A stretch of 11,600 bases of DNA from a virus. Location: the UHGV virus genome UHGV-0196356, one strand, 5' to 3'. The notes under the pieces were generated by a model. It was not told where the DNA came from. It searched no databases and was given only the letters and a program-made list of their open reading frames with translations. Below are positions 1,101-2,315 of the stretch, piece by piece (positions within the stretch are counted from its first letter, which is position 1; every line of letters starts with the position of its first letter). Position numbers and translations under genes: made by a program.

Positions 1101-1874
1101 TTACTTATTAAGTTCACTAAGTTTTGCTGGGTTAAGCCTGTAAATTATACAGAATATGGCAAATAAGCCAGCGGTACTAATACCAAAACCATATTTCTCA
1201 AATGTTAATTCAACAAAACCCGGATAGCTAATTAGCAAGCCGGGGATACTTATGCTAAATAATGTTCTCAATACGAAATATTGCATCCCACTTGGTTTTT
1301 TTATAAACAAGCAAGCAATAAATACCAATGAACTAAAGCACAGGCCTATTACTAATGGTATTTGTACTTTGTCACCTATGAAATAAGCAGATAAAAAGAC
1401 AATTATAGCAACTATAATCACCCCAACTGCTAATGCTATTTTCACTGGATCTACCTTCTCTTTATTGTCAAACCCAAATGTCGGCAAGTTATTGTCATGC
1501 AATAATCCTCTTAACTTTTCTGATTTTTCTTTTCCGCAGTATGCTTTAACCATCCTCTGCATCCCGGAGTAAGCTGTTTCACTTGGGGATATGGTTTGAT
1601 CATTTACATCAATCCTGTAACGCTGATAATGTTCAACAAGAAGCTCTATCACATCATGACATGTTTCCGCAATCCATTGATTCCATGAGCTATTTTTCAG
1701 TATCTCATCGGAGTTATTCATTGCGCAACATTGCTCTAGATAATTACATAGTTGCTTCATTGATTTATCAGCATCATTTAGATTTTTTGTTTCCTCATAA
1801 TTATTAAGGTCTTGGCAATATTTTTCATATAGAGCATTAACCTTTTCCTGCTGTTGAGTTATTCTTTGTTGCAT
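1101..1874 (-). CDS. Hypothetical membrane-anchored protein D (257 aa): Cys-rich soluble N-terminal domain of about 150 aa plus four predicted C-terminal TM helices
   Basis: Long ORF. Hydrophobic segments KIALAVGVIIVAIIVFLSAYFIG, IPLVIGLCFSSLVFIACLFI, FVLRTLFSISIPGLLISYP, GISTAGLFAIFCIIY. Seven Cys in the N-terminal domain. Followed by a terminator. No family recognised. AT-rich codon usage. Confidence 0.6.
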   Translation of the reverse strand: MQQRITQQQEKVNALYEKYCQDLNNYEETKNLNDADKSMKQLCNYLEQCCAMNNSDEILKNSSWNQWIAETCHDVIELLVEHYQRYRIDVNDQTISPSETAYSGMQRMVKAYCGKEKSEKLRGLLHDNNLPTFGFDNKEKVDPVKIALAVGVIIVAIIVFLSAYFIGDKVQIPLVIGLCFSSLVFIACLFIKKPSGMQYFVLRTLFSISIPGLLISYPGFVELTFEKYGFGISTAGLFAIFCIIYRLNPAKLSELNK

Positions 1875-2154
1875 TTTGTTTTTCTACTGCCTTTATGTTG
1901 TCTTGCATTTCTTTTATTTTGAATAATGCCATCTTGGCAACTGATGTATCCAAGCCTTCCATACAAGAGACAATTAACGGTTTGTGGTAAACCGAACTGA
2001 CGACTTTTAGTATGTCGCTTTCATTTGCATTACTTGGTAGAGTAGCTAGTTTACTCCATATGCTGTTTAATTGTTCCTCGGTCGGACTCCATACCTCAAT
2101 ACCAAGAATCTGTTCAAGGTCTTTTTTCATCGCTAAAATATTTGCATTTTTCAT
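1837..2154 (-). CDS. Hypothetical small protein C (105 aa), paralogous to B at its C-terminus
   Basis: ORF with an ATGA start/stop overlap with upstream B; its 3' end overlaps the D start by 38 nt. Shares the motif GLDTS[TV]AKM[MA]L..IK with B. Hydrophilic, Lys-rich tail. Confidence 0.5.
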   Translation of the reverse strand: MKNANILAMKKDLEQILGIEVWSPTEEQLNSIWSKLATLPSNANESDILKVVSSVYHKPLIVSCMEGLDTSVAKMALFKIKEMQDNIKAVEKQNATKNNSTAGKG

Positions 2155-2315
2155 TTTTTACCTTCTTTATTTGAGTTAGATACTTTCGCTTGACTTTCCT
2201 GTTCTTTTTTTATGCTATTTAGCATCATTTTTGCTGTTGACGTATCTAGGCCATCATGGACCATAACTCTCTGAGGCGTATTTTTTTTACTATCTGGCGT
2301 ATTATTATTTGCCAT
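2151..2315 (-). CDS. Hypothetical small protein B (54 aa), truncated paralog of C
   Basis: Hand-translated (below the ORF-track size cutoff): MANNNTPDSKKNTPQRVMVHDGLDTSTAKMMLNSIKKEQESQAKVSNSNKEGKK. AAGG 5 nt upstream of ATG 2315. Stop TGA overlaps the start of C (ATGA). Confidence 0.4.
   Translation of the reverse strand: MANNNTPDSKKNTPQRVMVHDGLDTSTAKMMLNSIKKEQESQAKVSNSNKEGKK

What the first reader, a model, noticed from the sequence alone, without database searches (positions are those of the whole stretch)
1837..2315. Tandemly duplicated small-protein genes B and C with overlapping reading frames
B and C share a near-identical core (GLDTSTAKMMLNSIKK versus GLDTSVAKMALFKIKE) and similar Lys-rich tails, and their DNA is visibly similar, indicating a tandem duplication with B lacking the N-terminal half of C. 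B stop and C start overlap (ATGA), and C overlaps the D start by 38 nt, implying coupled translation and fixed stoichiometry. The N-terminus of D (ITQQQEKVNALYEK) weakly echoes the same tail.
Basis: seen in the sequence. Interest (0 to 1): 0.55.

Follow-up and report, generated by a model that had tools for sequence, protein, structure and literature searches.

The report
Paralogous small genes in prophage cassette
Two small overlapping genes that share a conserved "GLDTS" motif are old paralogues that sit in front of a membrane-protein gene; the three genes form a rare, swappable cargo cassette at the end of a filamentous prophage, most likely a phage-exclusion or defence module, though its function is untested.

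Summary
The core observation holds. B (2151-2315, 54 aa) and the C-terminal third of C (1837-2154, 105 aa) are homologous (BLASTP E=9e-7; 0 of 5000 shuffles reach the core score; family-profile comparison E=1.8e-8). The ATGA B/C overlap and the 38-nt C/D overlap are real and conserved in relatives.

Three details fail:
- The Lys-rich tails are only compositionally alike.
- D's N-terminus does not echo them.
- The DNA is only 50% identical, so the duplication is old.

B is a distinct, selected lineage (dN/dS 0.22-0.54), not a decaying copy. Relatives carry B-C-D, B-C1-C2-D, B1-C1-B2-C2-D or C-D alone. The core is a C+D pair, which is also found at the fun(Z) slot of a P2-like phage and in a Planctomycetota MAG.

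In the window the trio is a 1.24-kb cassette swapped into the variable accessory region of a dif-integrated, IKe/UPΦ-like inovirus prophage. In three of four non-phage contexts it lies beside recognised defence genes (ThsB, Hhe, PD-Lambda-4). D has a helical cytoplasmic domain plus four TM helices. No Pfam, PADLOC or PDB match exists.

Best reading: an uncharacterised cassette with a membrane effector, for exclusion or defence (possibly toxin-antitoxin-like). Function is inferred, not shown.

The parts
2151..2315 (-). Gene B: 54-aa protein with a polar, disordered-looking N-terminus, a short strand (RVMVH), DGLDTS, an amphipathic helix and a Lys-rich tail. It is a short paralogue of the C-terminal module of C.
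   Evidence: ORF with ATG start and AAGG Shine-Dalgarno about 9 nt upstream. Orthologues occur in 8 loci. dN/dS is 0.22-0.54. The exact sequence is on 32 public contigs as 'hypothetical protein'.
1837..2154 (-). Gene C: 105-aa protein with a small N-terminal alpha/beta domain (signature W.PT..QL..I), a hinge, GLDTS, and a long helix (residues 70-98).
   Evidence: ORF. Matches phrog_6502 at E=6.6e-11. There are 26 homologue clusters in 5.8 billion proteins. AF2 model mean pLDDT 73.5. dN/dS is 0.14-0.44.
1101..1874 (-). Gene D: 257-aa membrane protein with a cytoplasmic helical N-domain (about residues 1-135) and four predicted TM helices (143-166, 172-190, 196-215, 234-247). Proposed effector.
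   Evidence: ORF. Matches phrog_5814 at E=3.6e-45. AF2 gives pLDDT about 90 for the N-domain and a poorly modelled TM part. The superfamily has 461 representative clusters at E<=1e-3. dN/dS is 0.07-0.27.
2193..2279 (-). Shared core in B (residues 13-41: TPQRVMVHDGLDTSTAKMMLNSIKKEQES). The GLDTS codons are at 2238-2252.
   Evidence: hhalign aligned columns; BLASTP; sequence read directly.
1897..1983 (-). Shared core in C (residues 58-86: KPLIVSCMEGLDTSVAKMALFKIKEMQDN). The GLDTS codons are at 1942-1956.
   Evidence: hhalign aligned columns; BLASTP; sequence read directly.
2151..2154 (-). ATGA overlap of the B stop and the C start. The GAAGG Shine-Dalgarno for C lies inside B's conserved KEGKK tail codons.
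   Evidence: Sequence. The same 4-nt overlap occurs at all B/C junctions in relatives.
1837..1874 (-). 38-nt overlap of the C 3' end and the D 5' end. D is in the +1 frame relative to C, and the D frame has a TAG at 1884-1886 just upstream of its ATG.
   Evidence: Sequence. Junction alignment of 6 loci with the start codon at a conserved position.
1112..2350 (.). Cassette-swap segment. B-C-D replaces a 0.38-kb segment (one 110-aa gene) of an otherwise 98.6%-identical E. coli prophage.
   Evidence: blastn of the window against L002 and L015; L002 annotation.
1035..1066 (-). GC-rich 10-bp hairpin (GGCCGCTGCG...CGCAGCGGCC) followed by TTTT on the minus strand, 35 nt downstream of the D stop. Probable operon terminator.
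   Evidence: Read from the sequence. Not called by the consensus scan, because the loop is 12 nt and the T-run only 4. Inference.
1001..1028 (+). Hybrid dif-like site (20/28 match, first 15 nt identical to dif). Left prophage junction.
   Evidence: Pattern scan.
10312..10339 (+). Perfect 28-bp E. coli dif site. Right prophage junction.
   Evidence: Exact match, with 0 of 200 shuffles giving a match.
2352..2774 (-). Upstream 140-aa membrane protein of the same leftward operon. It is a prophage backbone gene, not part of the mobile cassette.
   Evidence: Matches phrog_4174 at E=1.2e-82. Its cluster has 659 members, with one member sequence on 903 contigs. It is absent from the plasmid and island copies of B-C-D.
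2863..3459 (-). HTH (Cro/C1-type) regulator, the first gene of the leftward operon, divergent from the replication gene. The true start is probably internal, since relatives are annotated at 148-151 aa.
   Evidence: Matches phrog_3557 at E=3.3e-68, with a weak HTH_3 hit. RefSeq annotation of relatives.

Best explanation
B, C and D form a compact, horizontally mobile accessory cassette. It sits at the far left end of a dif-integrated, IKe/UPΦ-like filamentous prophage, as the last genes of the leftward regulatory operon.

The conserved core is a two-gene unit. C is a small cytoplasmic protein with an N-terminal alpha/beta domain and a C-terminal strand-GLDTS-long-helix module. D is an inner-membrane protein with a helical cytoplasmic N-domain and 2-4 TM helices. 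B is an old paralogue that kept only the strand-GLDTS-helix module. In different lineages the small genes have been duplicated, recombined or lost.

Proposed mechanism (inferred). D is a membrane effector whose activity is gated through its cytoplasmic domain by C. The conserved A-L-I-Q stripe of the GLDTS helix is the docking surface. B, a free-standing copy of that helix, co-assembles or competes at the same site and sets the activation threshold. Tight gene packing (4-nt B/C overlap, 38-44-nt C/D overlap) would keep their synthesis linked. The cassette most likely excludes or aborts infection by other phages, to the benefit of the lysogen.

Shown: homology, gene architecture, purifying selection, mobility, hotspot location, defence-gene neighbourhood, predicted folds. 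Inferred: protein-protein contacts, membrane-effector activity, an anti-phage role, translational coupling.
For: Homology of B and C.

B is a distinct old lineage under selection.

Variable arrays upstream of D. In about 250 kb of six-frame translation the motif is found only in small genes directly upstream of D.

The C+D pair is conserved at long range. In a P2-like phage, C' matches at E=3.5e-6 and D' is 24.5% identical over 95% of the query. In a Planctomycetota MAG, D matches at E=5e-17 and C at E=1.4e-5, with 7 nt between the genes and a serine recombinase alongside.

Mobility and hotspot location. There is a clean 1.24-kb swap relative to a 98.6%-identical prophage. The same cassette (99%) sits in a prophage with 89%-identical structural genes and a different regulator. 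It recurs in three inovirus backbones, a conjugative plasmid and an integrase island. The UPΦ paper reports that the ORFs beside dif are variable accessory genes of unknown function (PMC7307601). In the P2-like phage the pair occupies the G-FI slot, which in reference P2 holds fun(Z), annotated as blocking T5.

Defence neighbourhood. In three of four non-phage contexts the adjacent gene is ThsB/TIR (E=2.7e-128), Hhe/PDC-S37 (E=0) or PD-Lambda-4_A (E=7.8e-178).

D architecture. A confident helical N-domain plus TM helices. Invariant polar residues E47, E70, H82, R107 and R203 across 14 diverse members. In relatives the N-domain is combined with other C-terminal domains, including an alpha/beta-hydrolase.
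Against: There is no experimental evidence of any kind.

B, C, D and ten diverse D relatives have no significant hit to any PADLOC v2 defence model. The best hits are E=2e-4 (D) and E=5e-3 (P0040), both weak partial matches. They also have no Pfam, NCBIfam or PDB sequence match.

The defence-neighbour argument rests on only three loci. In the fourth non-phage context (L007) the one neighbour tested was not a defence gene.

The B-C-D contacts could not be modelled, because no multimer prediction was available. The TM part of D is poorly modelled (pLDDT 32-66). Inovirus accessory genes can equally be toxin-antitoxin, regulatory or virulence genes.
Confidence: 0.55

Rival explanations
1. Toxin-antitoxin (addiction) module. 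D is a membrane toxin, and C, with or without B, is its labile antitoxin. The main role is to stabilise the prophage, plasmid or island against loss (dif-integrated prophages are readily excised by XerCD) rather than to exclude phages. This overlaps with the best explanation, because many abortive-infection systems are TA-like.
For: Small upstream genes overlap a larger downstream gene, the classic antitoxin-toxin layout. The cassette occurs on a conjugative plasmid beside a GNAT/DUF1778 TA pair and in prophages and islands. Pf inoviruses are known to carry accessory TA systems (PMC12328805, title and abstract).
Against: C and B have no recognisable DNA-binding antitoxin domain (HTH, RHH, AbrB) in Pfam. 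D resembles no known toxin family. Duplication of the putative antitoxin into B, C1 and C2 types is unusual for TA pairs. The location in the P2 fun(Z) slot and beside defence genes fits exclusion at least as well.
Confidence: 0.2
2. Lysogenic-conversion cargo unrelated to phages. A membrane protein and its chaperone-like partners change host physiology, for example envelope stress, colonisation or virulence, as some accessory genes of CTXφ, Ypfφ and CUSφ do.
For: Integrating filamentous phages often carry virulence-related accessory genes around their core genes (PMC7307601). D is a membrane protein. The hosts are enteric pathogens, Salmonella, E. coli and Yersinia.
Against: The same pair occurs in a soil or peat Planctomycetota MAG, in Pantoea, and in Cedecea from a mushroom. 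No secretion signal or known virulence domain is present. The neighbourhoods are defence genes, not virulence loci.
Confidence: 0.12
3. A function specific to the filamentous phage's own life cycle (assembly, export, replication control, or superinfection immunity against the same phage) rather than a portable module.
For: The cassette is co-oriented with, and 36 nt downstream of, the prophage's regulator and 140-aa membrane gene, with no strong promoter of its own found by consensus scan. Several copies are in inoviruses.
Against: It occurs without any inovirus genes on a plasmid, an integrase island, IS-flanked chromosomal sites and a P2-like tailed phage. The 98.6%-identical prophage lacks it. 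IKe and I2-2 lack the accessory genes beside the dif site.
Confidence: 0.08
4. Artefact or decay. B is a non-functional remnant of a partial duplication, or C and D are one gene split by a frameshift or sequencing error.
For: B is short and flanked by low-complexity sequence. C and D overlap by 38 nt in different frames.
Against: B has dN/dS of 0.22-0.54, an invariant DGLDTS.A motif and conserved start and stop overlaps across loci as divergent as 36% D identity. Identical gene structure appears in many independent assemblies. The C and D frames are both intact in 6 aligned loci. Non-overlapping C/D versions exist. No N-terminally extended D homologue appears in the top 150 of 461.
Confidence: 0.03

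Closest known systems
PHROG families phrog_5814 (D) and phrog_6502 / phrog_31842 (C-type), all 'unknown function'
   Same: Direct sequence membership: D at E=3.6e-45 and C at E=6.6e-11. The P2-type pair hits phrog_5814 (E=1.2e-111) and phrog_31842 (E=1.8e-59).
   Different: These are unannotated clusters. They record neither the pairing, nor the B-type paralogue, nor any function.
P2 lysogenic-conversion exclusion genes (fun(Z), old, tin)
   Same: A distant C'-D' pair occupies exactly the G-FI slot that holds fun(Z) (blocks T5) in reference P2, on the opposite strand to the tail genes. It is nonessential cargo expressed from the prophage.
   Different: No sequence similarity to Fun(Z): tblastn with D or D' finds only one P2-like genome. 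Fun(Z) is a single protein of about 528 aa. The resemblance is positional only.
Lambda RexAB-type two-component prophage exclusion (cytoplasmic partner plus multi-TM membrane effector); from my own knowledge of the system
   Same: A prophage-expressed small operon with one soluble component and one roughly 4-TM inner-membrane protein proposed as the effector.
   Different: No homology was detected to any PADLOC model. Here the soluble partners are much smaller (54 and 105 aa) and paralogous, and D carries its own large cytoplasmic domain. The mechanism is untested.
Type II toxin-antitoxin operons
   Same: Small upstream genes overlapping a downstream larger gene; carried on plasmids and prophages.
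   Different: No DNA-binding antitoxin fold and no known toxin family. There are two or three paralogous upstream genes instead of one.
Accessory modules of integrating inoviruses (UPΦ h3-h5 ORFs; Pf PfsE, KKP and PfiAT)
   Same: The same genomic niche: a variable region beside the attachment/dif site and the regulator, with genes of defence, TA or superinfection-exclusion type in Pf phages.
   Different: Unrelated sequences. B-C-D replaces the UPΦ901-type gene at this position.
JukB (PDB 9jht_B), effector of the Juk anti-jumbo-phage system
   Different: The score is no better than those for dozens of designed helical repeats and Cry toxin domains in the same list. Sequence identity is 10%. 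It is a lead only, not evidence of relationship.

Membership tests
B/C 'GLDTS-helix' small-protein family (defined here) | A strand-G-L-D-T-S-helix core with conserved A(+6), L(+10) and I(+13), encoded immediately upstream of a D-type gene | tested here: met
   Invariant GLDTS in 13 sequences. B-family versus C-family profile E=1.8e-8. The census finds the motif only upstream of D.
phrog_5814 / D superfamily | N-terminal helical domain with W..W.AE.C, PS.TA.A.MQR and LP.YGF motifs, followed by TM helices ending in PGFIE...NPA | tested here: met
   phrog_5814 E=3.6e-45. 461 representative clusters. Invariant columns in a 14-member alignment.
Known anti-phage defence systems (PADLOC-DB v2.0.0) | Significant HMM match of at least one component to a catalogued defence protein | tested here: not met
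   No hit for B or C. D has only a weak partial hit (E=2e-4, 77 residues of a cyclase model). The P2-type pair has no hit, and of ten diverse D relatives only P0040 has a weak hit (Csx27, E=0.005).
Known anti-phage defence systems | Co-localisation with recognised defence genes or phage defence hotspots | tested here: met
   ThsB, Hhe/PDC-S37 and PD-Lambda-4_A are adjacent in 3 of 4 non-phage loci. The P2 fun(Z) slot. A swap in the variable dif-proximal region. The sample is small.
Known anti-phage defence systems | Protection against phage infection when expressed | not testable with these tools
   Requires cloning and plaque assays.
Type II toxin-antitoxin | Antitoxin with a DNA-binding domain (HTH, RHH, AbrB, Phd) and a toxin of a known family | tested here: not met
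   No Pfam or NCBIfam domain in B, C or D, or across 25 C-family and 14 D-family members.
Type II toxin-antitoxin | Adjacent co-directional genes with a small upstream partner and overlapping stop and start | tested here: met
   ATGA overlap for B/C and 38-44 nt overlap for C/D.
Type II toxin-antitoxin | Toxicity of the downstream product that is neutralised by the upstream product | not testable with these tools
   Requires expression experiments.
Programmed-frameshift fusion of C and D | A fused C-D homologue somewhere, or loss of an independent D start | tested here: not met
   D's start codon is conserved in 6 loci. Separate, non-overlapping C and D genes occur in 5 lineages. Full-length D matches begin within about the first 50 residues, leaving no room for a 100-aa C-like extension.
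dif-integrating IKe/UPΦ-like inovirus prophage (context) | pII, pV, pVIII, pIII, pVI, pI(Zot) and pIV gene set, flanked by dif and a hybrid dif site | tested here: met
   ORFs and RefSeq annotation of a 98.6%-identical relative. Perfect dif at 10312-10339 and hybrid site at 1001-1028. Description in PMC7307601.

The most novel reading that the evidence does not exclude
The C-D pair is the core of a previously unrecognised two-component membrane-effector immunity system, spread on mobile elements from Enterobacterales to Planctomycetota (461 D-superfamily clusters). In one branch the sensor/adaptor gene spawned a free-standing 'docking helix' mini-protein (B). B acts as a genetically encoded competitor or co-factor that tunes when the membrane effector fires. 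Copy-number changes and recombination among B, C1 and C2 would be the way the system diversifies in the arms race.
Probability: 0.3. Interest if true: 0.7.

Novelty: new member of a known kind. Interest (0 to 1): 0.45.

Why it matters
If the functional reading is right, this adds an uncatalogued family to the set of phage- and plasmid-borne exclusion or defence cassettes. It is rare in its three-gene form, but its membrane-protein superfamily is large (461 clusters at 50% identity). It would also be a case where a filamentous prophage of Salmonella, E. coli or Yersinia carries such cargo in its dif-proximal variable slot.

The B/C relationship is a compact natural example of a regulatory mini-protein arising by partial duplication of its partner's interaction module. 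Because the arrays vary between loci (C-D, B-C-D, B-C1-C2-D, B1-C1-B2-C2-D), the role of each copy can be tested by simple deletions.

If the functional reading is wrong, what remains is an ordinary but well-documented case of old tandem paralogy and gene overlap in an uncharacterised accessory operon.

Tried and rejected
1. Family databases. Pfam, NCBIfam and PADLOC scans of B, C, D and their neighbours gave nothing significant for the trio. Per-member Pfam scans of 14 D and 25 C relatives gave no consistent signal.

2. Solved structures. PDB sequence-profile searches for the D and C families gave nothing below E=0.1.

4. DNA searches. The trio is absent from 5,426 complete E. coli genomes and from 50,697 phage records, and gives one plasmid hit. 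The GTDB genome scan gave only four loci.

5. Tail similarity and the 'echo' in D's N-terminus were rejected by shuffling.

6. A recent DNA-level duplication was rejected: 50% identity, saturated third codon positions, and no detection by the repeat finder.

7. A C-D frameshift fusion was rejected.

8. Homology to P2 Fun(Z) was rejected; only the position is shared.

9. An RHH-like reading of B's strand-helix was considered, but no second helix and no Pfam support exist.

10. Rfam found no RNA family in the window.

11. The consensus scan found no convincing promoter directly upstream of B.

12. A literature search by protein accession found no paper. Rousset et al. 2022 covers the P2 old/tin hotspot, not the G-FI slot.

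13. Direction of evolution among B-C1hybrid-D, B-C2-D and B-C1-C2-D could not be resolved. In the four-gene loci, B and C1 resemble the window type while C2 and D resemble the Pantoea type. This could reflect either recombination between two three-gene types or differential loss.
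Full report
**1. What is at the coordinates**

The finding lies on the minus strand. Three ORFs are present:
- B: 2151-2315, 54 aa.
- C: 1837-2154, 105 aa.
- D: 1101-1874, 257 aa.

B's stop and C's start overlap as ATGA (2151-2154). C's last 38 nt overlap D's first 38 nt (1837-1874), and D is in the +1 frame relative to C. B has an AAGG and C a GAAGG Shine-Dalgarno at normal spacing. C's lies inside the codons of B's conserved KEGKK tail.

**2. Is the B/C similarity real?**

Yes, but only in the core.
- BLASTP aligns B 14-49 with C 59-94 (16/36 identical, E=9e-7).
- Shuffling B 5000 times never reaches the observed local score (64 against 27.5 +/- 4.6).
- The 24-residue core alone scores 53 against 14.5 +/- 3.2.
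- With orthologues added, a B-family profile matches a C-family profile at 95% probability (E=1.8e-8 over 29 columns).
- GLDTS is invariant in 13 sequences, followed by A, L, I and Q at helical spacing.

- The Lys-rich tails are not significantly similar (980/5000 shuffles reach the score).
- D's N-terminus is not similar to either protein. It is simply C's tail DNA read in another frame.
- The DNA is only 54/108 identical in the core, with third positions at 14/36. A repeat finder does not see it.

So the duplication is old and detectable only at protein level.

**3. Are these real genes?**

Pairwise Nei-Gojobori estimates against orthologues give dN/dS of 0.22-0.54 for B, 0.14-0.44 for C and 0.07-0.27 for D. 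The exact B, C and D sequences occur in many independent Salmonella enterica and E. coli assemblies and in an 'Inoviridae sp.' record, always as 'hypothetical protein'. This excludes a sequencing artefact and a decaying B.

**4. The wider family**

D has only 10 close clusters and C only 6 among 5.8 billion proteins. A C-family profile reaches 26. Fetching their loci showed a copy-number-variable array upstream of D.

| Array | Where found |
|---|---|
| B-C-D | window; E. coli-type and Yersinia inovirus prophages; Cedecea conjugative plasmid; Pantoea integrase island |
| B-C1-C2-D | two chromosomal sites, one of them IS-flanked |
| B1-C1-B2-C2-D | viral contig L024, whose D is only 36% identical to the window's |
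| C-D, no B, no overlap | Pectobacterium-type and another inovirus |

A six-frame census of all loci finds the GLD[TM]S motif only in small genes directly upstream of D.

Every B-type sequence has other B-types as its nearest neighbours. Outside GLDTS, identity is 0.46 for B-B against 0.24 for B-C, and all B-types have D at position -1 and K/R at +7. B is therefore an old, distinct gene type, not a local accident.

The window's C has a C1-type body: 0.66-0.75 nt identity to L007 C1 (0.58-0.67 to L005 C1) against 0.47-0.56 to C2. It switches to the C2-tail/D-start sequence near '...GAAAAA/AATGCAA...'. This is consistent with recombination between paralogues. The direction of events is unresolved.

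**5. The conserved core is C+D**

A P2-like phage carries an 85-aa C-like gene (W.PT..QL..I signature, motif diverged to SVDNSD) and a 233-aa D-like gene. D' is 24.5% identical over 95% of the query, and C' matches the family at E=3.5e-6.

A Tepidisphaeraceae (Planctomycetota) MAG has a D-like gene (E=5e-17). Seven nt upstream of it lies a small ORF matching the C family (E=1.4e-5), and a serine recombinase is alongside.

An exhaustive HMMER scan with a D profile finds 461 representative clusters (109 at E<=1e-10). Many share only the N-domain, and a few add other C-terminal domains: an alpha/beta-hydrolase of the PGAP1/DUF676 type, DUF3298, and Lcl_C.

**6. Genomic setting in the window**

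The window is a filamentous prophage with pII, pV, coat, pIII, pVI, pI/Zot and pIV on the plus strand (3483-9315). It is bounded by a perfect E. coli dif site (10312-10339) and a hybrid dif-like site (1001-1028).

It matches the IKe/I2-2-related, dif-integrating 'UPΦ' group. In that group the reverse-oriented ORFs beside dif are variable accessory genes of unknown function (PMC7307601).

B-C-D are the last genes of the leftward operon, after the HTH regulator and a 140-aa membrane gene. A GC-rich hairpin follows at 1035-1066.

Compared with a 98.6%-identical E. coli prophage, window 1112-2350 cleanly replaces a 0.38-kb segment carrying one 110-aa gene. Another genome has the same cassette at 99% identity, but with 89%-identical structural genes and a different regulator. 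This is a cassette swap in a hotspot.

**7. Clues to function**

- In the P2-like phage the pair sits between the tail-fibre-assembly gene G and the sheath gene FI, on the opposite strand. In reference P2 that slot holds fun(Z), annotated as blocking T5. There is no homology to Fun(Z).
- In three of four non-phage contexts the adjacent gene is a recognised defence gene: ThsB/TIR (E=2.7e-128), Hhe/PDC-S37 (E=0) and PD-Lambda-4_A (E=7.8e-178).
- AlphaFold models give D a confident helical N-domain (pLDDT about 90) followed by four TM helices. By the positive-inside rule this reads as N-in/C-in, which is my inference from the sequence.
- The model of C has a small alpha/beta domain, a low-confidence hinge at 64-68, and one long helix at 70-98. 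B corresponds to the strand-hinge-helix only.
- No Pfam, NCBIfam, PADLOC or PDB match exists. Fold matches are generic.

**8. Interpretation**

The best-supported reading is a portable C+D cassette with a membrane effector, of the exclusion/abortive-infection (or TA-like) kind, in which B is a conserved mini-paralogue of C's interaction module.

The proposed gating is inference only. In this model the GLDTS helix docks onto D's cytoplasmic domain or pairs with the same helix of its paralogue, and B tunes the threshold.

Translational coupling is plausible from the conserved overlaps. In the window the GGA(G/A) Shine-Dalgarno-like element upstream of D, present in five relatives, is TAGA. This would make D more dependent on ribosomes translating C. 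That too is untested.

The rivals are a pure addiction module, non-phage lysogenic conversion, an inovirus-specific function, and artefact. They are ranked lower for the reasons given in their entries.

**9. Verdict**

Coupling is untested and a fusion is rejected.
- The families are uncharacterised.
- I rate this a new member of a known kind (mobile-element accessory cassettes with a membrane effector), of moderate interest.

Noticed in passing
window 1-1111: The chromosomal flank to the left of the prophage is decayed compared with E. coli APEC E19057 (L002). Three deletions join autotransporter 2725-3341 to 3859-3970, then to hipA 4807-4955, then to 5880-6111. They remove the 3' end of the autotransporter gene, all of hipB and most of hipA.
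   Followed up: partly
window 10312-10339 and 1001-1028: A perfect 28-bp dif site on the right and a hybrid dif-like site on the left (20/28, first 15 nt identical) bracket the prophage, as expected for XerCD-mediated integration of a filamentous phage.
   Followed up: yes
window 2863-3482 versus L015: A related genome shares the 140-aa gene and B-C-D at 99% identity, but the window's regulator region finds no match in it. That genome encodes a different 148-aa HTH protein, and its structural genes are only 89% identical. The immunity and regulator module and the cargo appear to be exchanged independently.
   Followed up: partly
L016 (ENA ERZ16007972 contig, 469 kb): Two copies of the prophage lie in tandem: a second secretin-Zot-pIII... 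set begins about 900 nt after D. Tandem copies are often seen for dif-integrated filamentous prophages.
   Followed up: no
L001 10057-10323 (Cedecea plasmid gene B): The N-terminus of the Cedecea B protein carries a run of SSN/SNS tripeptide repeats (about seven units) that is absent from all other B proteins. This part of B is a freely variable, low-complexity region.
   Followed up: no
L003 6753-7450 and L021 6022-6718: In the Pantoea island and one Yersinia inovirus, the same two genes directly precede B-C-D: a 129-130-aa protein (phrog_15841, E=9e-67) and a 103-aa protein whose ORFs overlap. They may be a further associated module or a separate cargo unit.
   Followed up: no
window 9316-10311: About 1 kb between the secretin gene and dif holds small ORFs on both strands (for example 9465-9713 on the plus strand, 82 aa, and 9864-10109 on the minus strand, 81 aa). 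This may correspond to the second accessory region that the UPΦ paper describes as intergenic in IKe and I2-2.
   Followed up: no
window 1884-1893 (alignment A7): The GGA(G/A) Shine-Dalgarno-like element 8-9 nt upstream of D's start in five relatives is TAGA in the window. The change is a synonymous GTG-to-GTA change in C, and it also creates an in-frame TAG just upstream of D's ATG.
   Followed up: partly
P0096, P0065, P0141 (D-superfamily members): Some distant relatives keep D's N-terminal domain but carry extra C-terminal domains: an alpha/beta-hydrolase of the PGAP1/DUF676 type, DUF3298, and Lcl_C. In L005 the defence gene next to the cassette (PD-Lambda-4_A) also has weak DUF676/PGAP1 hits.
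   Followed up: partly
window 2816-2846: A 14-bp inverted repeat (terminator-like on the plus strand) lies in the gap between the HTH regulator gene and the 140-aa membrane gene. It could attenuate or regulate read-through into the downstream genes, including B-C-D.
   Followed up: no
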